In this document: piece by piece, positions 2,249 through 63,603 of the stretch | Numbering within the stretch: position 1 is the first letter of the stretch | Layout of the letters: every line of letters starts with the position of its first letter | Assembly: GCA_018818885.1 (NCBI GenBank) | Contig: JAHIRB010000007.1 | Span: 18,357 to 82,356 of the forward strand | From: Patescibacteria group bacterium | GTDB lineage: Bacteria > Patescibacteriota > Patescibacteriia > Buchananbacterales > SURF-54 | Direction of reading: 5' to 3' | DNA: 64,000 nucleotides | Translations under genes and position numbers: made by a program | Notes under the pieces: generated by a model | What the model was told of the DNA's origin: nothing | The model's input: the letters and a program-made list of their open reading frames with translations, nothing else | The model's database searches: none

Positions 2249-4486
2249 ATGTCTTCTTACATACCACAAATCAGAGAATTGATAATTGCACCGCCCGATA
2301 AAGCGGCTTCTTATTGTAAATTTTTAAATTCCTCGGTTGAATCACAGTACCATCAAAACTTTGGTTATCTTTTTGGTTTGATTGAATATGAGGGCCCAAT
2401 TGAAAGTATTGATGATTTACTCAACCAATTACTTGGGGAATTACAAAACAATTTTTATTATGATAATTACGAAAAGGATATAGATTTAGAACAGCGACTA
2501 GAAATTGCTCTGCAAAAAACTAATAGCAATTTTTTAAGAATTTTAAATGCCTCTAAAGTAAATATTGAACTAGAAAAACTAAATCTTAATATTGCACTAG
2601 TTAAAGACAAAGACTTATTTTTAATTACAGTCGGAAAAATTCCAGCACTATTAGCTCACAAAGCAACAGATAATGAATACAAAATGATTGACATTGGAGA
2701 ATCCACTTCTGGAGATAAAGCAGGTAATAAAATTGACCCTCTAAAATTATTTTCTCAAGTAATTTCTGGTAGCATTACAACAAACGATTATTTATTTTTA
2801 GCCAATACTACTGTACTAGATTATCTTTCTTTAGAAAAAATTAAAAAGATTATTACTCTAAACAAAATCGATGATGCAATTTTAGAATTAAAAAAACTGC
2901 TTGATGAAGTTAATACTGATTTTAGCATGGGGTTAGTGATTATCTCTGTTGAACCAGCGCTAAAAGATCAACCAGAAATCATCATCAAACAACTAGAAGA
3001 ATTCGAATACACAAAAGCTGCCTCTAAAGATTCAATGCACGAACTTATCAGAACCCAAAACGCTACTCAAAAAATATTAAATACATCTTATTTACCTGAT
3101 ATCAATAAATACAGAACTGTATTCAAGAGATCAATGCAACAATATTTAAATAAAGTTAGAAGTGTACCAATACCAAAAATTCCATCGATTAATAAATTGA
3201 CCTCCATGCAAAAAGCCACTCAACAAATTGAAGAAAAACAATATAGACCCACTATGCAAGACAGACTTTCTAGCATACCAAATCCTTTAAAAAGTTTTAG
3301 GATTTTTAAAAGCGTAAGGTTTAAACTGCCATCAATAAAATTTATTAAAGAAAGAACCAGACAAATGACACCAAAAAGTCGTTTACTTTTATTTGCATCT
3401 ATTGCCCTAATAGTTATTTTTGGAATTAATGTGGTTTACATTGGTGTTAAAAATAAAAATGAGACCAATGCAGAACTGGTTCGCGAAACAATGCTTGCGG
3501 TTCAAGAAAAAAATGACGAGGCCAAAGCTAGCCTGATTTATGAAGACGAAACAAAAGCAAGAAAATTACTGCTAGAAGCAAAAGAAATACTTAATGAACT
3601 AACTAGTGAAAATAAAAAAGAACCTGCCATACAAAATTTAGAACAAGAAATTGAACTGCAACTATCTAAATTAAGACATTTAGTAGAAATTAACGATCCA
3701 CTCATGCTTGCTAATTTCGAAAATGTTAATTCAGCTGCAAGTGTTGCGCCGCTAATTGTGCTGTTAGAAAATAAAATATACAGTCAGGATCATAACAACC
3801 AAGCAATTTATAAACTTGACCCAGACACAAAAAATATCACAACAATTTTTCAAGCTGATGTAAAAATTAAAAACGCAATTTCTTCTAGGCCATTTAGTAG
3901 CTCGAAAATTATATTCTTGAATGAAAACCAAACAGTTTTTGAACTCAATACAAATTCAGATACAATTAGCCAACTGGGATTGAGTATTAATCCCGGAGCT
4001 GAGGTTAACGATTTTGATGTTTATAATCAGCGCTTATATTTTATTGATAAGAAAAATAATCAAATATATAGATATCGTGAGTTAGAAGAAGGCTTTGGCT
4101 CCCCTACTGATTGGATTAAAGAAAAAGTAGATCTATCGATGGTTACTTCTTTTGCCATCGACGGACAAATATTTTTACTAAAAGAAAACGGACAAATTAC
4201 CATGCTTTTGAATGGCTTAAAGACTGATTTTGAAGTATCTGATATTGATCCAGCGCTACAAAACCCAACTAAAGTAAAAACTTTTGTTGATTCAGACTAC
4301 TTATATATTTTAGATCCCTCCAGTAGTCGCTTAGTTGTAATAGATAAAACAGGTAAACTAATTATTCAATACCACTCGAGTAGTTTTGACAATTTAAAAG
4401 ATTTTGCAGTTGACGAACGTAACGATAAGATATATCTTCTAAATGGTAATATGGTTTTTGGAATTTCTGCTAATCACTTAGAATAA
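2249..4486 (+). CDS. large hypothetical membrane-anchored protein (cytoplasmic N-domain, one TM helix, coiled coil, C-terminal beta-propeller-like region)
   Basis: 745 aa; TM segment LLLFASIALIVIFGINVVYIGV mid-protein; coiled-coil stretch; repeated hydrophobic/aromatic blades near C-terminus. Confidence 0.5.
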   Translation: MSSYIPQIRELIIAPPDKAASYCKFLNSSVESQYHQNFGYLFGLIEYEGPIESIDDLLNQLLGELQNNFYYDNYEKDIDLEQRLEIALQKTNSNFLRILNASKVNIELEKLNLNIALVKDKDLFLITVGKIPALLAHKATDNEYKMIDIGESTSGDKAGNKIDPLKLFSQVISGSITTNDYLFLANTTVLDYLSLEKIKKIITLNKIDDAILELKKLLDEVNTDFSMGLVIISVEPALKDQPEIIIKQLEEFEYTKAASKDSMHELIRTQNATQKILNTSYLPDINKYRTVFKRSMQQYLNKVRSVPIPKIPSINKLTSMQKATQQIEEKQYRPTMQDRLSSIPNPLKSFRIFKSVRFKLPSIKFIKERTRQMTPKSRLLLFASIALIVIFGINVVYIGVKNKNETNAELVRETMLAVQEKNDEAKASLIYEDETKARKLLLEAKEILNELTSENKKEPAIQNLEQEIELQLSKLRHLVEINDPLMLANFENVNSAASVAPLIVLLENKIYSQDHNNQAIYKLDPDTKNITTIFQADVKIKNAISSRPFSSSKIIFLNENQTVFELNTNSDTISQLGLSINPGAEVNDFDVYNQRLYFIDKKNNQIYRYRELEEGFGSPTDWIKEKVDLSMVTSFAIDGQIFLLKENGQITMLLNGLKTDFEVSDIDPALQNPTKVKTFVDSDYLYILDPSSSRLVVIDKTGKLIIQYHSSSFDNLKDFAVDERNDKIYLLNGNMVFGISANHLE

Positions 4487-5548: not shown

Positions 5549-5700
5549 ATTATATTTAATTAATTTAAAAAATCTGTGGCAAATCCACAGACTAAAATTA
5601 AGGCCTTTTTCCTCGATAGGGTTATACTTTTAAGCTAATTTAGCCCCTATTGTCTGTGGAAATATTTAATTAAGTATAGTTTAGCAGATTACCAGAATTT
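5549..5700 (-). promoter_or_regulatory. rplJ leader region with attenuator-like hairpin (tctgtgg/ccacaga + T-run)
   Basis: hairpin 5567-5595 followed on minus strand by tttttt immediately upstream of rplJ start; L10 leaders are commonly autoregulatory. Confidence 0.4.
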
Positions 5701-12191: not shown

Positions 12192-12215
12192 TTAATTAAC
12201 GAATGCCATATTTTG

Positions 12216-12304
12216 CCGGAATGACACACTTTTTCGCCAGAGGCGAATCATACTCAGGCTGAAGTGTGTTAAAAACGATAACAGTCTAAAGACTGTCAAT
12301 CCGG
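12216..12304. repeat. REP-like 89-bp element copy 1 (two hairpins: acacact...agtgtgt and acagtct-aa-agactgt)
   Basis: near-identical (1 mismatch) to 12926-13017; partial third copy with expanded loop at 12316-12376 containing the transposase stop codon. Confidence 0.8.
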
Positions 12305-12362
12305 CTCTATTGTTACCAACGATAACAGTCTACCTTCGAAAAGTTAAGGTCAAAAAAGACTG

Positions 12363-12914
12363 TCAATCCGGTGGGGTTTTGGTAAAATCTATCACTGAAT
12401 ACTCTTCAAACACAGATAAGATCCATTCTTTTCCGTATTTCTTTAAATAATAATTATAACTTGAAAATTTATAACTTTCTAGCTGATCAAGGCTTCTAAC
12501 ATAATCATGTTTTATAGGATTGCAATGAATATAATTGAAACGTGTCCAGAAGTCTTTTTCTGATTCTAGAATAGTATCATGATATTGATGCCATACTTTT
12601 CTACCTCGTTTATCGTCTAGACTATTCACAAGAAAAGAACTCTTTCCATTAATCAACTTAGTAATTTTTTTCAAATTATCTTTATTCTTAATTCTACAAT
12701 TTAAATGATAATGATTTCTTAAAACAACCCATGCTAACAAATTTTCATTACATTCATCAAATGCATTCTTAATACATTCTGATAATATTTCTCTTTTTTT
12801 GTCACTATGAAAATAATTAAATTCCTTATAGGTTCTTGCTGTAATAAAATATTGAGTATTATCTAAATATATATGAGGTAAACGGTGTATATTTCGTTTT
12901 TTTGGATAATGCAT
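12363..12914 (-). CDS. IS200-like / REP-associated tyrosine transposase (HuH Y1 transposase, RAYT)
   Basis: 183 aa; HuH motif NHYHL, conserved Tyr region, flanked on both sides by REP-like repeats. Confidence 0.75.
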   Translation of the reverse strand: MHYPKKRNIHRLPHIYLDNTQYFITARTYKEFNYFHSDKKREILSECIKNAFDECNENLLAWVVLRNHYHLNCRIKNKDNLKKITKLINGKSSFLVNSLDDKRGRKVWHQYHDTILESEKDFWTRFNYIHCNPIKHDYVRSLDQLESYKFSSYNYYLKKYGKEWILSVFEEYSVIDFTKTPPD

Positions 12915-12925
12915 AAAAAATCTTG

Positions 12926-13017
12926 TCGGAATGACACACTTTTTCGCCAGAGGCGAATCATACTCAGGCTGAAGTGTGTTAAAAACGGTAACAGTCTAAA
13001 GACTGTCAATCCGGTGG
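12926..13017. repeat. REP-like element copy 2 (direct repeat of 12216-12304)
   Basis: direct sequence identity, begins 12 nt upstream of transposase start. Confidence 0.8.
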
Positions 13018-13129
13018 GATCACTGACAATACTTGCCGACTTTTTTTGTAATATGAATAATGTCACAGATTCCTTTTGTTGTTAATGTAAAAGTTTTGCT
13101 ATATACCATGAAATTATGCTTATTCTATC

Positions 13130-13173
13130 TGTCATCCCGAGCATAATATAAAATAACAAAGGTCGAGATGACA
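13130..13173. repeat. hairpin of the TGTCATYCYGA dispersed family
   Basis: tgtcatcccgagc ... gtcgagatgaca inverted arms; related motifs at 17325, 18046-18140, 53957. Confidence 0.45.
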
Positions 13174-13185
13174 ATAATGATTAAG

Positions 13186-17316: not shown

Positions 17317-17324
17317 ATTATTAT

Positions 17325-17456
17325 ATTGTCATCTCGACCGTTATTTATTTATTTTATGCGAGTGGAGAGATCTCACCCCAAACTTCTTGAAAGGTGTGAG
17401 ATTCTCCGCCAGAGGCGGATCTGCCTATGGCATGACTCGACAAGCTCGGAATGACT
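17325..17456. repeat. composite REP-related hairpin cluster
   Basis: ggagagatctcacc/ggtgtgagattctcc hairpin; gccagaggcggatctgcctatggc palindrome shared with REP and with CDS tails at 47071 and 55461; gctcggaatgac terminal motif. Confidence 0.55.
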
Positions 17457-17460
17457 AAAA

Positions 17461-35161: not shown

Positions 35162-36244
35162 ATGCAACCTTTATTTGAAAAAATAAAAAAATTTACAATA
35201 AATCTGCAAAGAGTTCCTGTTTCTCAAAAAATATTTTTTGTTCAACAGTTGGGCATTATGATAAAAACCGGCATTTCGCTTTCTGTAGCTTTAAACACTT
35301 TAAGCCGTCAAGCCTCAAATAAAAAATTTAAAACCATACTTTTATCTTTAAAAAGTGAAGTAGAAAAAGGAAATTTACTTTCTAAAGGTTTAGAAAAATA
35401 CTCCCAGGATTTCGGTGAGCTTTTTATTAATATGATAAAAACTGGAGAAACTTCTGGTAAGTTAGAGGACGTCTTAAAACAATTATATATTCAGATGAAA
35501 AAAGATCACGAGATTGTGGGTAAGGTAAAGGGTGCCTTAATCTATCCAGCGATTGTTATTACCATGATGATAGTAATAGGAATTTTAATGATGGTTTACG
35601 TTATCCCAAATATCACATCAATTTTTGAAGAAGTAAACGCTCAAATCCCACTTTTTACTAGAATATTAATATGGTTAAGTAAATTTATTACAGCCAATGG
35701 AATTTTAGTAGCTGCTGTTTCATTAATATCGATAACAATTTTTGTTCGCCTAATAACTTGGGAAAAAGGTAAATTTCAATTTCATAGAATTTTATTAAGG
35801 ACACCGGTTGTTGGAAAAATAATAGTAAAAATAAATTTAGCAAGATTCTGCAGAACACTTAGCTCTTTATTAAAAACAGATATACCTATTGTAAAAACTT
35901 TTGGCATAACTGCAGATGTATTAAGCAATCGCTTATACCGAAAAGCGTTAAATGAGGCTAAGGAACAAATACAAAAAGGGGTTAGTATAGAAAAATCTTT
36001 AAATGTTTACCCTAAACTTTTTCCACCAGTAATTTTGCAAATGATTGCAGTGGGCGAAGACACAGGTTCTTTAGACGACGTATTACAAGAATCAGCAATT
36101 TTTTACGAAGACGAAGTATCCCAAACCATGGATAATTTACCATCTATAATGGAACCAGTTTTAATGGTTATTTTAGGTCTTGGAGTTGCTGCCATGGCAG
36201 TTGCTGTTATTATGCCAATGTACAGCTTAAGCCAAGCAATTTAA
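35162..36244 (+). CDS. pilC: type IV pilus inner-membrane platform protein PilC (GspF family)
   Basis: two T2SSF repeats, 3 TM. Confidence 0.85.
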   Translation: MQPLFEKIKKFTINLQRVPVSQKIFFVQQLGIMIKTGISLSVALNTLSRQASNKKFKTILLSLKSEVEKGNLLSKGLEKYSQDFGELFINMIKTGETSGKLEDVLKQLYIQMKKDHEIVGKVKGALIYPAIVITMMIVIGILMMVYVIPNITSIFEEVNAQIPLFTRILIWLSKFITANGILVAAVSLISITIFVRLITWEKGKFQFHRILLRTPVVGKIIVKINLARFCRTLSSLLKTDIPIVKTFGITADVLSNRLYRKALNEAKEQIQKGVSIEKSLNVYPKLFPPVILQMIAVGEDTGSLDDVLQESAIFYEDEVSQTMDNLPSIMEPVLMVILGLGVAAMAVAVIMPMYSLSQAI

Positions 36245-36245
36245 T

Positions 36246-36362
36246 ATGACCCAGTAGTGATCCCGTAAAATTTAAATTACTATTGGATTATAAAAACATA
36301 AAAAAATTTGGAATAATTAATAAATATAATAAATGCCATTTACGGGACTACTACCGGGTATG
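36246..36362 (+). mobile_element. MITE-like element copy E2 (long-TIR subtype, 118 bp), ATG-bounded, between pilC stop and pilin-like gene start
   Basis: TIRs atgacccagtagtgatcccgtaaaa / tttacgggactactaccgggtatg; AT-rich core; terminal ATG is start codon of downstream gene. Confidence 0.6.
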
Positions 36363-38633
36363 AAAACCAAAAATCAAAAAGGACTATCTTTAATCGAAGT
36401 ATTATTTTCGGTTTTTATTTTGGCTATTTTGAGTATAGGAATTTTTTCTCTGTTCCAAATTGCTTTGAATGTTTTAGCAGAAAATAAAGCCAGAGTTGGT
36501 GCAGTTTCGTTAGCCAACGAAAAAATGGAAATTATCAGAAACTTATCATACGAAAATGTTGGTACAGATGGCGGATGGCCATCAGGAGATCTTGAACAAA
36601 CAGAACTTATTACTAAAAACAATATTGAATATACTGTTAATATAGCTATTAATTACGTTGATGATCTTTTTGATGGTGATTGTGACACTGACTTAGATTG
36701 CAATGATTATAAAGACGTTGAAATCGAAGTGCTGTGGACTGGGCATTTGGGTGTGCGTAACGTGATTATGAGAACAGCAGTTGCGCCACGAGGTTTAGAA
36801 ACGATGACTGGCGGAGTTTTAAGAGTGAGTGTATTTGATGCTAATGGTGATCCTGTGGATAACGCACAAGTCCACTTAGTTAATAATATTATTTCTCCAA
36901 CAATTAATACAAATTTTTATACTAATGATAGTGGTCAGGTAATTATTCCTGATCTTGAAGAATCATTAAACACATACCAACTAGATGTAACAAAGATAGT
37001 AGTCCCAGGGGAGACAGAATACAGTATTGATAGGACTTGTGCTATTGATTCTAATTTTGCAGATTGCACAAACGGTAATGCAGACCCAACCAAACCACAC
37101 GCCTCAGTAATCGAAAGTGAAATTACAGAAATTAGTTTTGCCATTGACCTTGTCTCGACTTTAACCATAAGAACAGTTAATCAAACTACGCCTTTGGCAT
37201 GGATAGTTAATACCGGCGACCTTTCAGAAGATCAAGACAACCCAGCCATTACGGTGTGTGATAGTGGCGAATATATTTTTGGTTGGCGAGATGATGATTA
37301 TGGTATAGATAAAATATATAGCCAAAGATACGACGAATATGGTGAAGTGATTTGGGTAGAAGATAAAGCGATTTCAACGGCTTCGAAACAAAACAATATA
37401 GACTTAGCCGTAGATAATGATTGTAATATTTATGCTACTTGGCAAGATGATAGAGACGATAAAGGTAATGAAGATGTGTATTTTGTTAGTTACGATGACA
37501 ACGGAGATGATCGTTGGGACGGCGAAAAAAAGATAGTCACAGAAGCTGAAAGTTCAGATCAAAGCTGGCCAAAAATCACTCTAAACACTGCTAAAGATAG
37601 AGCTTATATTGCATGGGAAGATGAAAGAAATGATAATGGCGATATCTACATTATAAAATATGATATTTCATCAGAAGAAACTCCACTATCAGTAGTAGCA
37701 GAATTCGATCCAGCAATAAAGGTAAATTCTGATTCAATTGGTTCAGCGCAGGAAAAACCAGTGGTAGCTAACGATACAGATGATAATATTTACGTTGTTT
37801 GGGAAGATGATAGAAATTTTAATTATGATATTTATGCTCAAAAATTAAATAGTGATGGAACCAAGTTGTGGTCTGACACAAAAATAAATTCTGATTCTGG
37901 CGCATCTCAAGAAAATCCAGATATCGCACTTGATTCTTCAGACAATTTGTATGTTGTCTGGCAGGATTTTAGAAGTGATAATGATTATGACATTTATATT
38001 CAAAAATACGATAGCTCTGGCAATAGATTGTGGGCATTAGAAGATATTAAAGTAAATTCTGATTCTTCTGACGCATCTCAAGAAAATCCTGTAATAGCAG
38101 TATATGACCCCGGAACACCAGCTGATATTAGAATTTATGTCGTCTGGCAAGATTACAGAAACAGTAACTCTGATATATACATGCAAATTTTTGATTACAA
38201 TGGTAATAAACAATTAGATTATGATCTCAATATTGGAAATGGTAGTGCAGACCAAGAAAATCCAGATATAATAATTTCTCCGATCACTGGGTTTCCAACA
38301 ATAACCTGGCAAGACAACACCAACGGCGATTGGGATATAATAGCAGCGCAATACGGAGACACAATAGAAAACGGTGGTAACGTTGCAAATGTGGCTTTTG
38401 ACATGTCTGGCTCAAAAACTATTGGTGAAGATATAAACGAAGATCCTATCTATAAATATAACAATATTACCCTACAAACTGACGGTACTGGGACTCTAAT
38501 ACTTACAAATATGGAATGGGATACATACACAATTAATCTTGATCCTGACCGCACACTTCTAATGTCAGAACCCCCTATCCCCTTCTTATTAAATCCCAAT
38601 ACTTCGTTAACCGTATTTCTAAATGTTGAATAG
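36360..38633 (+). CDS. giant type IV pilin-like protein: prepilin N-terminus + seven ~45-aa YVVWxDxR...DIYxQK repeats (predicted beta-propeller)
   Basis: leader MKTKNQKG then LSLIEVLFSVFILAIL (class III signal); tandem sequence repeats visible in translation. Confidence 0.7.
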   Translation: MKTKNQKGLSLIEVLFSVFILAILSIGIFSLFQIALNVLAENKARVGAVSLANEKMEIIRNLSYENVGTDGGWPSGDLEQTELITKNNIEYTVNIAINYVDDLFDGDCDTDLDCNDYKDVEIEVLWTGHLGVRNVIMRTAVAPRGLETMTGGVLRVSVFDANGDPVDNAQVHLVNNIISPTINTNFYTNDSGQVIIPDLEESLNTYQLDVTKIVVPGETEYSIDRTCAIDSNFADCTNGNADPTKPHASVIESEITEISFAIDLVSTLTIRTVNQTTPLAWIVNTGDLSEDQDNPAITVCDSGEYIFGWRDDDYGIDKIYSQRYDEYGEVIWVEDKAISTASKQNNIDLAVDNDCNIYATWQDDRDDKGNEDVYFVSYDDNGDDRWDGEKKIVTEAESSDQSWPKITLNTAKDRAYIAWEDERNDNGDIYIIKYDISSEETPLSVVAEFDPAIKVNSDSIGSAQEKPVVANDTDDNIYVVWEDDRNFNYDIYAQKLNSDGTKLWSDTKINSDSGASQENPDIALDSSDNLYVVWQDFRSDNDYDIYIQKYDSSGNRLWALEDIKVNSDSSDASQENPVIAVYDPGTPADIRIYVVWQDYRNSNSDIYMQIFDYNGNKQLDYDLNIGNGSADQENPDIIISPITGFPTITWQDNTNGDWDIIAAQYGDTIENGGNVANVAFDMSGSKTIGEDINEDPIYKYNNITLQTDGTGTLILTNMEWDTYTINLDPDRTLLMSEPPIPFLLNPNTSLTVFLNVE

Positions 38634-47015: not shown

Positions 47016-47052
47016 TAAAAAAACGATCCCTAAATTTGGGATTGTTTTTTAT
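47016..47052. terminator. bidirectional terminator-like hairpin between rpmA and pyrG
   Basis: A-run, gatccc/gggat stem, T-run. Confidence 0.5.
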
Positions 47053-47061
47053 TGTCTATCT

Positions 47062-48714
47062 TTATTTTCTGCTAGAGGCAGATCCGCCTTTGGCGTGTTT
47101 CTTGGCCGATTTTATAAATTCTACAAAAAGAGGATGTGGGTTTAGTGGGCGTGACCTAAATTCAGGATGGAATTGCACACCAACAAAAAATTTATGCTTA
47201 GGAATTTCCACTATTTCTACTAATTTTTTATCTGGCGAAAGACCAGCTAAAAGTAATCCTTTTTTAGTTAGTCTATCTCTATAAGCATTGTTAAATTCAT
47301 ATCTATGGCGATGACGTTCGTCAATTCTTTTTTTACCATAAGCTATAAAGCTTCTAGATTTTTTTGCTAAGACGCAAGGGTAACTGCCTAACCTCATGGT
47401 ATTTCCGTACTGTTTCTTAGCAAGCTTTTCTACTTGCTCTTCCATAATGTGAATAACCGGATGCTTTGTTTTTGGTTTTATCTCTGTACTATTAGCATCT
47501 TTTAATTTGGCAACATTACGAGCAAATTCAATTGTTGCCAGCTGCATACCATAACATAAACCGAAATAAGGAATATTGTTTTCACGTGCATATTTGATGG
47601 CTTTTATTTTTCCTTCTATACCTCTGCTGCCAAATCCTCCAGGTACAATTATGCCATCATAATTTTTAAGTTCCTTAACTTTAGCAGGATTTTTTTCGTA
47701 TTCATCTGAATTGACCCACTCGATAACTGGTTTAACTTTATTAGCCCAGGCTGCATGCTTTAACGACTCAATAACCGAAATATATGAATCAGCTAAAATA
47801 AAAGCGCCAGTTGCAAAATACTTGCCAACCATTGCAATCTTAACTTCTTTTTTAACTGATTTAGCCGTTCTAACTAATTTCTTCCAATCACCAAGATCCT
47901 TTTTTGGTTTTGCTTTCAAACCTAGTTTGGCAATTATTTTTTGGCTTAAGTTTTCTTTTTCAAAATTGATAGGTACTTCGTAAATTGAATCAACATCTGG
48001 AGCAGAAATTACATCTTGTGGCAAAACATTGCCAAAAACTGAAAGCTTTTGTCTGCGCTTTTCGTCTAGGGGTTTGGCAGATCTGCACAAAATAAAATCA
48101 GGTTGAATACCTGCTGAATTAAGAGTTCTTATTGCATACTGCGTTGGTTTTGTCTTCATCTCCCCTATTGTGCCGGGGATAGGAAGATAACTCACCATTA
48201 TAAATTGAACATCCAAAGGATTTTTTAAATGCATCATTCTAGCTGCTTCTAAAAACAAAATATTCTGATACTCTCCAACAGTTCCACCGACTTCGATTAT
48301 AGTAATATCTGCCTTAGATTTTAAGGCAGCTTTTTTTATTCTTCTAATTATTTCTTCTGGAATATGCGGTACAACTTCTACACATTTTCCGTTATATTCT
48401 AAATTTCTTTCTTTATGAATTACAGACTCGTAAATTCTACCGGTAGTCATATAATTTGCTCGGTATATATCTTGGTTTAAAAAACGTTCATAATTTCCAA
48501 TATCTTGATCAGTTTCGTCTCCATCTTCTGTTACAAAAACTTCACCGTGTTCAGTTGGGTTCATTGTACCTGCATCAACGTTTACATATGGATCAATTTT
48601 GATGGCAGTTACTTTATATCCTCTAGCCTGTAAAATTTTTCCTATTGATGCTGACGCTACTCCTTTACCCACACCTGACATCACGCCACCAACTACAAAA
48701 ATATATTTTGACAT
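47062..48714 (-). CDS. pyrG: CTP synthase
   Basis: 550 aa, N-terminal synthetase and C-terminal GATase (GLCYGMQ); C-terminal tail AKGGSASSRK encoded by REP-like palindrome. Confidence 0.9.
   Translation of the reverse strand: MSKYIFVVGGVMSGVGKGVASASIGKILQARGYKVTAIKIDPYVNVDAGTMNPTEHGEVFVTEDGDETDQDIGNYERFLNQDIYRANYMTTGRIYESVIHKERNLEYNGKCVEVVPHIPEEIIRRIKKAALKSKADITIIEVGGTVGEYQNILFLEAARMMHLKNPLDVQFIMVSYLPIPGTIGEMKTKPTQYAIRTLNSAGIQPDFILCRSAKPLDEKRRQKLSVFGNVLPQDVISAPDVDSIYEVPINFEKENLSQKIIAKLGLKAKPKKDLGDWKKLVRTAKSVKKEVKIAMVGKYFATGAFILADSYISVIESLKHAAWANKVKPVIEWVNSDEYEKNPAKVKELKNYDGIIVPGGFGSRGIEGKIKAIKYARENNIPYFGLCYGMQLATIEFARNVAKLKDANSTEIKPKTKHPVIHIMEEQVEKLAKKQYGNTMRLGSYPCVLAKKSRSFIAYGKKRIDERHRHRYEFNNAYRDRLTKKGLLLAGLSPDKKLVEIVEIPKHKFFVGVQFHPEFRSRPLNPHPLFVEFIKSAKKHAKGGSASSRK
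47071..47094. repeat. REP-related palindrome (gccaaaggcggatctgcctctagc) inside pyrG 3-prime end
   Basis: 27/30 nt identical to 55461-55490; related to 17408-17431 and REP core. Confidence 0.65.
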
Positions 48715-49257: not shown

Positions 49258-49339
49258 AGCTTTTTTCATATTCCTCAATAAGTATATAAAAAAAAAGACT
49301 ATATTGCAAGAAATGCCTTTTATAAAATGTCAATAATAG

Positions 49340-49615
49340 CTAATGTTTAATATTAAAGTCTGAAAATTCACCTGTAACTTGAGAAAAATCTACCTGAACC
49401 TGTTTAACATTGGCTGATTTTACACCATCTTCACACCATTGCGCTAAACATTTGAGCTTCTCTTCTTCTCCTTCAGCAATTATTATAACACTACCATCTG
49501 GTTCATTTTTGACATATCCAGTTATTTTTAGATACTTAGCTTTTTCTACTGTATTTATCCGATAGCAGACATCCTGAACATTACCAGTAATTCTAATTTC
49601 TGCTTGTTTCTTCAT
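49340..49615 (-). CDS. acyP: acylphosphatase
   Basis: GNVQDVCYR...[11 protein letters not shown] motif pattern. Confidence 0.75.
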
Positions 49616-54932: not shown

Positions 54933-55511
54933 ATGAGAAACTTCAACAAAAACAACAGATCTAGTGGGGGTGGTTATAACAGAAGAGATTCTGGTAGACC
55001 AGACATGCACCACGCTGTTTGTGACAAATGCGGCAAGGATTGCGAAGTCCCGTTTAAACCTACTGGTGACAAACCAATCTATTGTAGTGATTGTTTTAAA
55101 AATGTCGAACCTAAAAGATCAGGTGGTCGTGATTTTCAAAGATCTAGTTTTGCGGATAAAAGAATGTATAAAGCTACTTGCGATAAATGTCATAATGAAT
55201 GCGAAGTACCTTTTATGCCAACTAGGGGTAAACCAGTTTATTGCGACAACTGCTTTGTAAGAGAGGATAAACCAAATTCAAGAGGTGGTAGCCCATCTAA
55301 CGATCAGCTTGCTAAAATTAACGCCAAACTAGACGAAATTTTAAAAGCCTTAGGCACAAAAGTAAAGCCAGAAAATAAGGAAGTGCCAGCAAAAGAAGAT
55401 AAACCAAAAAAGTCTGCAACGAAAAAAACTACTACCAAAAAGCCAGTAGCAAAGAAATCCGCCAAAGGCGGATCCGCCTCCGGCAGAAAAGTGGTTAAGA
55501 AAAAGAAATAA
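54933..55511 (+). CDS. tandem zinc-ribbon (CxxC-x17-CxxC x2, zf-trcl-like) Lys-rich protein
   Basis: two copies of CDKCxxxCEVPFxPTxxKPxYCxxCF; tail AKGGSASGRK encoded by REP-like palindrome. Confidence 0.6.
   Translation: MRNFNKNNRSSGGGYNRRDSGRPDMHHAVCDKCGKDCEVPFKPTGDKPIYCSDCFKNVEPKRSGGRDFQRSSFADKRMYKATCDKCHNECEVPFMPTRGKPVYCDNCFVREDKPNSRGGSPSNDQLAKINAKLDEILKALGTKVKPENKEVPAKEDKPKKSATKKTTTKKPVAKKSAKGGSASGRKVVKKKK
55461..55484. repeat. REP-related palindrome (gccaaaggcggatccgcctccggc) inside CDS 3-prime end
   Basis: see 47071-47094. Confidence 0.65.
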
Positions 55512-55524
55512 CAAACTCACATAC

Positions 55525-55560
55525 AAAAAACTCTCCCGCGAGACAGGAGGGTTTTTTGTT
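55525..55560 (+). terminator. rho-independent terminator
   Basis: aactctcc/ggagggtt stem followed by ttttttgtttt. Confidence 0.55.
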
Positions 55561-63351: not shown

Positions 63352-63488
63352 ACCGGGCAGTAGAAATTCAAATTGTAAGTATAATTTAAAATCATAATAT
63401 TTTTTGTGAATAATTTTTTAAATGTTTACGACTCATAATATGAACGAAATATGAACAAATATTTTTTGAATTTTCACTGCCCGGTCAT
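63349..63488 (-). mobile_element. MITE-like element copy E3 (short-TIR subtype)
   Basis: termini cataccgggcagtagaaattcaaa / ttttgaattttcactgcccggtcat; very similar to E1 termini. Confidence 0.5.
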
Positions 63489-63603
63489 ACCCGGTAGTGA
63501 TCCCGTAAATGGAATTTAATTTTTATTAATAATATTGAGTAGATTAAATAAATTTATTGCTAGATAGTAATTTTAAATTTTACGGGACTACTAGTGGGTC
63601 ATA
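63486..63603 (-). mobile_element. MITE-like element copy E4 (long-TIR subtype, 118 bp, inverted relative to E2)
   Basis: TIRs match E2 with few mismatches; shares cat junction with E3; terminal atga provides stop of upstream ORF. Confidence 0.6.

What the first reader, a model, noticed from the sequence alone, without database searches (positions are those of the whole stretch)
47062..47100. REP-related GC-rich palindrome embedded in the 3-prime ends of two unrelated CDS gives them the same C-terminal tail
pyrG (minus strand) ends with gccaaaggcggatctgcctctagcagaaaataa, encoding ...AKGGSASSRK. The tandem zinc-ribbon gene (55461-55490, plus strand) ends with gccaaaggcggatccgcctccggcagaaaag, encoding ...AKGGSASGRK. 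These match at 27 of 30 nt. The shared string is a palindrome (ggcggatccgcc core). It is related to the hairpin at 17408-17431 (gccagaggcggatctgcctatggc) and to the REP core cgccagaggcgaatc. Inference: a mobile palindromic element inserted into, or was co-opted at, CDS 3-prime ends and extended both proteins with the same peptide.
Basis: seen in the sequence. Interest (0 to 1): 0.6.

Follow-up and report, generated by a model that had tools for sequence, protein, structure and literature searches.

The report
Tiny palindromic insertion element inside genes
Two unrelated genes in this genome share a tail because each picked up a copy of the same 30-36 base double-hairpin DNA element, which is scattered through many uncultured bacterial phyla and is often read in frame inside essential proteins.

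Summary
pyrG ends ...KKHAKGGSASSRK* and the zinc-ribbon gene carries ...KKSAKGGSASGRK seven residues before its stop. The DNA matches at 27/30 nt (36/42 with flanks). None of 119 PyrG orthologues and only 3 of 119 zinc-ribbon orthologues have the peptide, and both copies use codons that are rare here.

The palindrome belongs to a sharply bounded family: TTT-TCCGCC-NNN-GGCGGA-TCCGCC-NNN-GGCGGA-AAA, two tandem 15-nt hairpins. Most hits are Patescibacteria; others are Ignavibacteriota, Omnitrophota, PVC, Planctomycetes and more. About 44% lie in confident CDS, and 87% of those are in the one phase that reads SAxGGSAxGG. Hosts include RpoB, RpoC, GyrB, UvrB, FtsH and MurA.

In GyrB, empty sites read ATT TTT|AAA GAT, and filled sites hold the 30-nt core exactly there. 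Across seven GyrB orthologues the stem codons are frozen at synonymous sites (7/8 columns against 5/105, p=1.6e-7).

The link to the neighbouring IS200-like (RAYT) transposase is not: 38 related RAYT loci lack the element. How it moves is unknown. I found no description of it in the searchable literature.

The parts
47065..47100 (-). Element copy in the last 12 codons of pyrG. It reads AAA CAC GCC AAA GGC GGA TCT GCC TCT AGC AGA AAA = K H A K G G S A S S R K, followed directly by the stop TAA (47062-47064). The 30-nt core is 47068-47097. It is a diverged copy, 29/36 to the family consensus.
   Evidence: 36 bits. The tail is absent from 119 orthologues.
55455..55490 (+). Element copy in the Lys-rich tail of the tandem zinc-ribbon (zf_Tbcl_2) gene. 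It reads AAA TCC GCC AAA GGC GGA TCC GCC TCC GGC AGA AAA = K S A K G G S A S G R K. The core is 55458-55487, 29/30 to the consensus core. Seven more codons follow before the stop.
   Evidence: 55 bits. The peptide is absent from 116 of 119 orthologues.
17402..17437 (.). Intergenic copy (TTCTCCGCCAGAGGCGGATCTGCCTATGGCATGACT). It belongs to the recurrent '...GGATCTGCCTnnGGCATGAC' sub-type and is embedded in a cluster of other small GC-rich hairpins.
   Evidence: 43 bits. The same sub-type is seen in L005, L042, L049, L075, L101 and L111.
12230..12265 (+). Degenerate copy (TTTTTCGCCAGAGGCGAATCATACTCAGGCTGAAGT, 30/36). It sits at the apex of the ACACACTT...AAGTGTGT hairpin in the 108-nt repeat downstream of the IS200-like gene.
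   Evidence: 13 bits; the best shuffle scores -12.
12940..12975 (+). Second degenerate copy, with the same 36 bases as 12230-12265. It lies in the other 108-nt repeat, which overlaps the 5' end of the IS200-like gene.
   Evidence: (family D1, 92% identity).
47062..48714 (-). pyrG (CTP synthase, 550 aa), host gene 1. Orthologues are typically 539-544 aa.
54933..55511 (+). Tandem treble-clef zinc-ribbon protein (PF23477) with a Lys-rich disordered tail, host gene 2.
12363..12914 (-). IS200-like Y1 transposase (RAYT-like) gene. It is listed because its flanking repeats contain the degenerate copies. It is probably not the mobiliser.
   Evidence: PF01797, E=2.7e-6.
47018..47050 (.). Terminator-like hairpin between pyrG and the convergent rpmA gene. 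It shows that the element is not needed to terminate pyrG.
55533..55549 (.). Terminator-like hairpin just downstream of the zinc-ribbon gene. The scan reports it on the minus strand. The plus-strand version with a T-run (ctctcccgcgagacaggagggtttttt) I read by eye in the sequence.
   Evidence: sequence.

Best explanation
Both tails come from independent insertions of one small non-autonomous palindromic DNA element.

Anatomy. The core is 30 nt, TCCGCC-NNN-GGCGGA-TCCGCC-NNN-GGCGGA: two tandem 15-nt stem-loops with 6-bp stems and 3-nt loops. It is usually flanked by TTT on the left and AAA on the right, which makes a 36-nt (12-codon) unit.

Insertion. It enters T-run/A-run DNA without a detectable target duplication. 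Its length is a multiple of three and it has no stop codon in any frame, so a copy inside a gene does not break the reading frame.

Selection. Copies that persist are mostly those read in the phase giving the flexible peptide (F)SAxGGSAxGG(K). In this genome two copies landed in the AAA/AAG runs that encode Lys-rich C-terminal tails. These sites are A-rich and tolerate extra residues. pyrG gained about 10 residues just before its stop, and the zinc-ribbon protein gained 10 residues seven codons before its stop. Both copies have since drifted.

What is shown: the element family, its sharp boundaries, its presence or absence among orthologues, the frame bias, the empty and filled GyrB sites, and the nucleotide-level conservation of the stems.

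What is inferred: that copies arise by active insertion driven by an unidentified trans-acting enzyme that recognises the hairpins, and that the frozen stems reflect continued recognition, gene conversion between copies, or a structural role.
For: - Tail absent from 119 PyrG orthologues and from the syntenic close relative L125. Absent from 116 of 119 zinc-ribbon orthologues.
The 15 positions not specified in the search pattern are nevertheless conserved: 99 of 123 sites have 3 or fewer mismatches there. Information content falls to about 0 outside a 36-nt block.
- 54 of 123 sites lie in confident CDS, and 47 of those 54 are in frame 0, in either orientation (26 and 21), p=4e-16.
- Hosts are unrelated housekeeping proteins: FtsH, PyrG (at an internal site), AspS, PheT, UvrB, Mfd, RpoB, RpoC, GyrB, MurA, MurC, RecJ and ClpB.
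- GyrB: 88 of 120 orthologues have no insert, 19 have +12 aa, and others carry decayed remnants. Empty sites read ATT TTT|AAA GAT, and filled sites hold the 30-nt core exactly between TTT and AAA.
- Stem codons are identical in 7 of 8 columns across 7 GyrB orthologues (72-91% aa identity), against 5 of 105 invariant S/A/G columns elsewhere; Fisher p=1.6e-7.
- Covariation: all 11 sites with A at position 24 have T at position 14, its partner in hairpin 2. Only 1 of 11 has the partner required by a single long hairpin.
- All three good copies in the window carry A24, a state found in 9% of the family, which points to a genome-specific lineage.
- Codon usage excludes convergence.
Against: - No transposition event, polymorphic allele or mobilising gene was found.
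- No gene family recurs near the element; the most frequent is in 6 of 120 loci and is a generic family.
- There is no consistent target-site duplication.
- The unit of insertion is not settled. The GyrB net gain is 12 codons, of which 10 are the core and 2 are an adjacent indel of unclear origin. The internal PyrG copy in L016 is a net +8 aa.
- In the window copies the left flank is AAA, not TTT, so the target rule is loose.
- The zinc-ribbon copy could be old rather than a separate insertion: relatives P0206, P0208 and P0141 also carry one in their tails.
- Some taxon labels on the assemblies are automatic and may be wrong. However, 1.6-Mb Ignavibacteriota contigs (L036, L074) and a 287-kb Omnitrophota contig (L080) cannot be stray Patescibacteria DNA.
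Confidence: 0.85

Rival explanations
1. It is a REP/REPIN mobilised by the RAYT-type IS200-like transposase encoded 35 kb away at 12363-12914. The coding copies would be ordinary intragenic REPs.
For: - The RAYT-like gene is flanked by two 108-nt repeats that each contain a 30/36 copy.
- A 47%-identical RAYT in L007 lies 3 kb from a copy, and one of its flanking hairpins also has a GC-rich insert with similar ends.
- Intragenic REPs are documented (PMC3733652).
Against: - 38 metagenomic loci encoding relatives of this RAYT (157.6 kb) have no PWM hit above 5 bits.
- Their flanks carry different repeats of the 'GGAAT + hairpin' type, e.g. ggaatagcggacgaaagtccgcgcc.
- In the window the copy sits nested at the apex of such a hairpin, like a passenger.
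- The element has no GTAG or CGTC tag.
- Only 1 of 120 element loci has a RAYT within 8 kb.
Confidence: 0.1
2. One tail was copied from the other inside this genome, by ectopic gene conversion or recombination between the two Lys-rich 3' ends 8 kb apart. There would then be one insertion, not two.
For: - Similarity extends to 36/42 nt including flanks.
- Both copies share AAA on the left and A at position 24.
Against: - The extra flanking matches are Lys/Arg codons (AAGAAA, AGAAAA), which are common in such tails.
- By my own base-by-base comparison of the sequences, the pyrG core is closer to a copy in FtsH of another genome (L010, 27/30) than to the zinc-ribbon copy (25/30).
- The intergenic copy at 17402 also has A24.
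Confidence: 0.1
3. The hairpins are kept because they do something as nucleic acid, such as protecting the mRNA 3' end, acting as a DNA structural signal or protein-binding site, or blocking antisense transcription. The peptide would be a by-product.
For: - Synonymous sites of the stems are frozen in GyrB over long divergence.
- Covariation keeps hairpin 2 paired.
- In both window genes the element lies just upstream of the terminator. Together with the upstream Lys codons it looks terminator-like on the antisense strand.
Against: - Copies occur at any position in proteins, in both orientations, and in intergenic DNA, with no fixed relation to gene ends.
- Many copies decay (GyrB remnants; the pyrG copy itself).
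- On the sense strand the consensus is T-run, hairpin, A-run, which is not a terminator.
- This reading is compatible with the best explanation rather than exclusive of it.
Confidence: 0.25
4. The shared peptide is a functional protein motif (a sorting, degradation or binding tag) that both proteins acquired or converged on. The DNA similarity would be secondary.
For: The peptide is hydrophilic and sits at or near C-termini, where such tags act.
Against: - The codon choice is improbable given the peptide.
- The same DNA occurs in intergenic regions and, in reverse orientation, encodes a different peptide (SAGGGSAFGG).
- It occurs in the middle of RpoB, GyrB and MurA.
- It is absent from nearly all orthologues.
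Confidence: 0.02

Closest known systems
Rickettsia palindromic elements (RPEs)
   Same: Palindromic repeats that insert in frame into many unrelated, often essential, protein genes and add a peptide without destroying function (PMC10969869; PMC3733652).
   Different: RPEs are about 100-150 bp and confined to Rickettsia, and Di Nocera et al. report that they carry a CGTC tag. This element has a 30-36 nt unit and no tag. It keeps almost the same sequence across several phyla, and its stems are conserved at synonymous sites.
REPs / REPINs with RAYT transposases, including intragenic GTAG and CGTC REPs
   Same: [quoted passage not shown]
   Different: REPs have a GTAG or CGTC tag, are mainly extragenic, and form species- or genus-specific families, and GTAG REPs flank their RAYT. 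Here the tag is absent, at least 44% of sampled copies are in CDS, the family spans phyla, and RAYT relatives are not flanked by it.
MITEs (e.g. Correia, ERIC, Coxiella QMITE)
   Same: Non-autonomous elements with inverted-repeat ends that can create in-frame fusions.
   Different: From general knowledge, MITEs are usually more than 50 bp, have terminal inverted repeats around an unrelated middle, and make target-site duplications. Here the whole element is two hairpins, and no duplication is seen.
PARCEL (palindromic amphipathic repeat coding elements) of Mollicutes and other microbes
   Same: A palindromic coding sequence distributed horizontally among diverse microbes (PMC2996958; title and abstract seen). 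That it yields similar peptides on either strand is from my own recollection of the paper, not checked here.
   Different: From the abstract and general knowledge, PARCELs are intragenic tandem-repeat modules in surface proteins. They are not single dispersed 30-nt insertions in housekeeping genes.
HIP1 (highly iterated palindrome GCGATCGC) of cyanobacteria
   Same: [quoted passage not shown]
   Different: HIP1 is 8 nt and arises by point substitution within existing sequence. This is a discrete 30-36 nt insertion.

Membership tests
REP (GTAG/CGTC-tagged repetitive extragenic palindromes) | Short (20-40 bp) imperfect palindrome present in many dispersed copies | tested here: met
   The block is 30-36 nt. 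There are 5 copies in 64 kb and at least 120 stretches in species-representative genomes.
REP (GTAG/CGTC-tagged repetitive extragenic palindromes) | GTAG or CGTC tetranucleotide at one end (PMC3733652) | tested here: not met
   The consensus ends are TTTTCC... and ...GGAAAA, and information content is about 0 beyond them.
REP (GTAG/CGTC-tagged repetitive extragenic palindromes) | Predominantly extragenic, mostly downstream of ORFs | tested here: not met
   54 of 123 sampled copies lie in confident CDS and only 32 are clearly intergenic.
REPIN-RAYT system | The RAYT gene is flanked by its cognate REP/REPIN | tested here: not met
   38 loci with relatives of the window's RAYT contain no copy and are flanked by other hairpins. 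The window's RAYT flanks hold only a nested degenerate copy.
MITE | Terminal inverted repeats | tested here: met
   The whole element is a palindrome.
MITE | Target-site duplication | tested here: not met
   The best direct-repeat signal at any tested boundary is 11-13% of sites. The GyrB filled and empty sites show none.
MITE | Derived from, and mobilised by, an identifiable IS transposase | tested here: inconclusive
   No gene family recurs in the 8-kb neighbourhoods. A genome-wide search was not possible.
Rickettsia palindromic elements | In-frame insertion into unrelated protein-coding genes | tested here: met
Rickettsia palindromic elements | Sequence family of about 100-150 bp restricted to Rickettsia | tested here: not met
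   The element is 30-36 nt. Hosts are Patescibacteria and other environmental phyla.
Intrinsic (rho-independent) terminator | GC-rich hairpin followed by a T-run on the transcribed strand | tested here: not met
   On the sense strand the hairpin is followed by A-rich sequence. Terminator-like matches are on the antisense strand only, and separate terminators lie downstream.
Described RNA family (Rfam 15) | Match at the gathering threshold | tested here: not met
   The only hit in the window is the L10 leader at 5557-5677.

The most novel reading that the evidence does not exclude
The 30-nt double hairpin is a distinct, actively maintained class of element. It keeps one sequence across distant phyla, and its stems are protected from synonymous change inside essential genes. 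That would imply an unknown trans-acting machinery that recognises the two hairpins (a new mobilisation or copy-correction system), or a general nucleic-acid function carried inside coding sequence.
Probability: 0.3. Interest if true: 0.85.

Novelty: new variant of a known kind. Interest (0 to 1): 0.68.

Why it matters
- In-frame palindromic insertions in essential genes were known mainly from Rickettsia and from a few REP families. This case shows the same phenomenon in Patescibacteria and several other uncultured phyla, with a much smaller element that keeps nearly the same sequence across those phyla.
- It explains a recurrent 'SAKGGSASGGK'-type peptide shared by unrelated predicted proteins. 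Such a peptide can mislead homology searches, motif discovery and annotation.
- The insertions give a natural map of sites in RpoB, RpoC, GyrB, UvrB, MurA and other proteins that tolerate a 10-12 residue insert.
- The frozen synonymous sites raise a testable question: what reads or corrects this DNA or RNA?

Tried and rejected
- RAYT as mobiliser. I fetched 38 loci of RAYT relatives. None had a copy, and their own flanking repeats differ. tblastn of the RAYT against 120 element loci gave one hit.
- Target-site duplication. I tested all boundaries from -9 to -2 on the left and 25 to 32 on the right, with k=3-5. There is only a weak signal.
- A linked gene. All-against-all clustering of 2,363 ORFs from the 120 loci found no family in more than 6 loci.
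- Viral or plasmid carriage. There are 2 hits in IMG/VR and none in PLSDB plasmids or GenBank phages.
- Rfam. No family covers it.
- Literature strings GGCGGATCCGCC and GGSASGG returned only cloning primers and linkers.
- An 'empty site' for pyrG. The closest relative (84% aa) is too diverged in the tail for a base-exact comparison. A weak resemblance just 3' of its stop codon (caggcgcatcagcgtctac) is unproven.
- A single origin for the GyrB insert. The NJ/Fitch analysis gives 13 changes against 28 for shuffled labels. This indicates mostly vertical descent, but the tree is too rough to exclude repeated gain or precise loss.
Full report
**1. The observation**

The window is AT-rich (about 32% GC). 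It comes from a Patescibacteria (CPR) genome: the identical PyrG is on a 200-kb metagenomic contig and is labelled 'Patescibacteria group bacterium'.

pyrG (47062..48714, minus strand) ends ...KKHAKGGSASSRK*. The tandem zinc-ribbon ORF (54933..55511, plus strand; PF23477) reads ...KKSAKGGSASGRKVVKKKK*. The two 30-mers match at 27/30, and the match extends to 36/42. The core GGCGGATCYGCC occurs three times in the window against 0.02 expected.

**2. Is the tail an extension?**

- Among 119 PyrG orthologues (69-84% identity), none ends in GGSAS-RK. They end in short Lys-rich tails, and most are 539-544 aa against 550 here.
- The closest orthologue (84%) lies in a syntenic locus (L125) and ends EFIKASIKK*.
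- Among 119 zinc-ribbon orthologues, 116 lack the peptide. Three carry it elsewhere in their tails: P0206, P0208 and a decayed form in P0141.
- In the Buchananbacteria relative P0208, the DNA is gaaaaaaag-TCCGCCAAAGGCGGATCCGCCTCTGGCGGA-aaataa, with the stop directly after the element. The PyrG of the related Buchananbacteria assembly (P0004) has no copy.
- Convergent codon use is excluded. GCC, GGC and TCC are minority codons here (15%, 19% and 5%), and the probability of the observed codons given the peptide is about 1e-6 to 1e-7.

**3. What the palindrome belongs to**

Aligning the 120 sites that have full flanks shows conservation well beyond the pattern. The 15 conserved positions not specified in the pattern match a consensus in nearly all sites (99 of 123 have 3 or fewer mismatches), and information content drops to about zero outside a 36-nt block. 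The block is:

TTT TCC GCC ARA GGC GGA TCY GCC TNN GGC GGA AAA

This is two tandem 15-nt units, each TCCGCC-NNN-GGCGGA (a 6-bp stem and a 3-nt loop).

The loops vary and are usually not complementary to each other (10 of 123). All 11 sites with A at position 24 have T at position 14, its partner in hairpin 2. Only one has the partner needed for a single long hairpin. So the two local hairpins, not the long palindrome, are what is kept. Seven of those 11 sites belong to one sub-type ('GGCATGAC'), so the number of independent events is smaller than 11.

A matrix built from these sites finds exactly five copies in the window. Three are good: 55455-55490, 17402-17437 and 47065-47100. Two are degenerate: 12230-12265 and 12940-12975. 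All three good copies share A24, a state seen in 9% of the family, which suggests a lineage specific to this genome.

**4. Where it occurs**

Labels of the hit genomes are mostly Patescibacteria. They also include Ignavibacteriota (contigs of 1.6 Mb), Omnitrophota (287 kb), Planctomycetia, Verrucomicrobiota/Kiritimatiellia/Lentisphaerae, Deltaproteobacteria, KSB1, Zixibacteria, Margulisbacteria, Firestonebacteria and a Desulfotomaculaceae genome. Some automatic labels ('uncultured Gammaproteobacteria' or 'Saccharibacteria' in third-party assemblies) are doubtful, but the long contigs make a multi-phylum spread secure.

The element is nearly absent from viral contigs (2 hits). It is absent from PLSDB plasmids and GenBank phages and matches no Rfam family.

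**5. Copies inside genes**

- Of 123 sites, 54 lie in a confident ORF (at least 200 aa, at least twice the next-longest spanning ORF, locus GC 55% or less). 32 are clearly intergenic and 37 are ambiguous.
- The element has no stop codon in five of its six frames. The sixth gains one only with certain loop sequences. ORF detection is therefore not biased by frame.
- Even so, 47 of 54 coding copies are in the one phase that reads (F)SAxGGSAxGG(K), in either orientation (26 and 21), p=4e-16. The other phases would read PPKADPPLAE or RQRRIRLRRK.
- Hosts are unrelated housekeeping proteins: FtsH, another PyrG (at an internal site), AspS, PheT (two copies), UvrB, Mfd (two), a type I restriction subunit, ArsA, RpoC, RpoB, GyrB, ClpB (at its very end), MurA, MurC, RecJ and an RHS protein (three).
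- Positions are spread along the proteins, with a slight excess at both ends. CDS 3' ends are therefore a special case, not the rule.

**6. A worked example: GyrB**

The GyrB of a Nomurabacteria genome (L116) carries the element. Among 120 orthologues, 88 have no insert at that site, 19 have exactly +12 residues, and the rest carry shorter remnants such as STKGGSTSGGK or IAKDGT--KDGG. Carriers cluster on a rough tree (13 Fitch changes against 28 for shuffled labels), which indicates mostly vertical descent.

Empty sites read GAA ATT TTT|AAA GAT ATT AAA TTT. Filled sites read ATT TTT [TCCGCCAAAGGCGGATCCGCCTCGGGCGGA] AAA GAT plus two further codons. The 30-nt core therefore sits exactly between a pre-existing TTT and AAA, with no duplication. 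At least here, the T and A flanks of the 36-nt logo can be target-derived. Whether the inserted unit is 30 or 36 nt is not settled. A general search for target duplications was negative.

**7. Nucleotide-level conservation**

In seven GyrB orthologues with the insert (72-91% aa identity), the eight stem codons use a single codon in 7 of 8 columns. Only 5 of 105 columns with invariant Ser, Ala or Gly elsewhere in the gene do so (Fisher p=1.6e-7). Identical codons given identical residues are 0.85 inside the element against 0.47 outside. Variation is concentrated in the second loop codon and the outer TTT/AAA codons. All carriers share the adjacent two-codon indel, so a single old insertion with later conservation is more likely than repeated re-insertion. 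The cause could be purifying selection on structure, gene conversion among copies, or continued recognition by some enzyme. The data do not separate these.

**8. Application to the window**

Both coding copies sit in A-runs that encode Lys-rich tails: AAG AAA | core | AAA. These sites are A/T-rich and tolerate extra residues, which explains why two unrelated genes were hit at their 3' ends. It also explains why the similarity seems to extend into the flanks, since those flanks are Lys codons.

The pyrG copy is diverged: TCC has become CAC, GGC has become AGC, and it has the compensated T14/A24 pair. The zinc-ribbon core is 29/30 to consensus. By my own base-by-base comparison of the sequences, the pyrG core is closer to a copy in FtsH of another genome (L010, 27/30) than to the zinc-ribbon copy (25/30). 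Direct copying between the two tails is therefore not needed.

Both genes have their own terminator-like hairpins downstream. The element itself looks terminator-like only on the antisense strand, because the upstream Lys codons read as a T-run there.

**9. The REP/RAYT question**

ORF 12363..12914 is an IS200-like Y1 transposase (PF01797). It is flanked by two 108-nt direct repeats (92% identity). Each folds into a hairpin ACACACTT...AAGTGTGT whose apex holds a 30/36 copy of the element.

However, 38 metagenomic loci that encode relatives of this protein (38-49% identity, 157.6 kb) contain no copy at all. They are flanked by other repeats of the form GGAAT + hairpin. Some of those hairpins carry other GC-rich inserts in their loops (L159, L007). 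The window's RAYT-flank copies are therefore best read as passengers nested in the RAYT's own REP-like hairpins.

The element also lacks the GTAG or CGTC tag that defines the REP superfamilies (PMC3733652). No other gene family recurs next to the element. The mobiliser is unknown.

**10. Comparison and novelty**

In-frame palindromic insertions are known: Rickettsia RPEs (about 150 bp) and some intragenic REPs. This element works like those, but it differs in four ways:
- size (30-36 nt);
- lack of a tag and of a RAYT link;
- near-identical sequence across phyla;
- frozen synonymous sites.

Full-text searches for its DNA and peptide strings found only unrelated primers and linkers. That search covers open-access papers only. 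I rate it a new variant of a known kind. The mechanism of spread and the reason for the nucleotide conservation remain open.

Noticed in passing
window 12197-13014: An IS200-like (RAYT-type) Y1 transposase gene (12363-12914, minus strand) is bracketed by two 108-nt direct repeats (92% identity). Each has two hairpins (ACACACTT..AAGTGTGT and ACAGTCTAAAGACTGT) and a GGAATGAC-type motif. Relatives elsewhere are flanked by 'GGAAT + hairpin' repeats.
   Followed up: yes
window 36245-36363 and 63485-63603: A roughly 120-nt MITE-like element is present in two copies in opposite orientation, 27 kb apart. It has about 25-nt inverted ends (TATGACCCAGTAGTGATCCCGTAAA ... TTTACGGGACTACTACCGGGTATGA) around an AT-rich middle. 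The first copy lies between ORFs 35162-36244 and 36333-38633 and overlaps the start of the second by about 30 nt.
   Followed up: partly
window 13129-13176, 17324-17359, 17431-17458: Other small GC-rich motifs recur in intergenic DNA (GTCATCCCGAGC / GGTCGAGATGAC / CTCGGAATGAC), including a 36-nt inverted pair at 86%. They form a hairpin cluster around the intergenic copy at 17402.
   Followed up: partly
L159 (about 2590-2680) and L007 (about 3830-3885): The loops of RAYT-flanking REP-like hairpins in other genomes carry different nested GC-rich inserts. This suggests that hairpin apices are favoured landing sites for small palindromic elements.
   Followed up: no
window 47070-47105 (+) and 55448-55487 (-): The element plus the upstream Lys codons gives a hairpin followed by a T-rich run on the strand antisense to each host gene. 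At pyrG this would lie behind the shared terminator facing the convergent rpmA gene.
   Followed up: partly
window 5557-5677 (-): Ribosomal protein L10 leader (Rfam RF00557, 64.9 bits). It is the only Rfam hit in the window.
   Followed up: no
window 37400-38300: Several families of diverged direct repeats with a spacing of about 170-360 nt lie inside the 766-aa ORF 36333-38633, pointing to a protein with tandem repeat domains.
   Followed up: no
L125 662-949 compared with window about 49280-49340: The close relative has a small GIY-YIG gene inserted between the acylphosphatase and ribosomal protein L9 genes. The window lacks it. Small GIY-YIG and 23S-rRNA-IVP genes also appear near the zinc-ribbon gene in L123.
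   Followed up: no
L022, L038, L060, L088, L096: Some single genes carry two or three copies of the element (PheT, Mfd, an RHS protein), at different stages of decay.
   Followed up: partly
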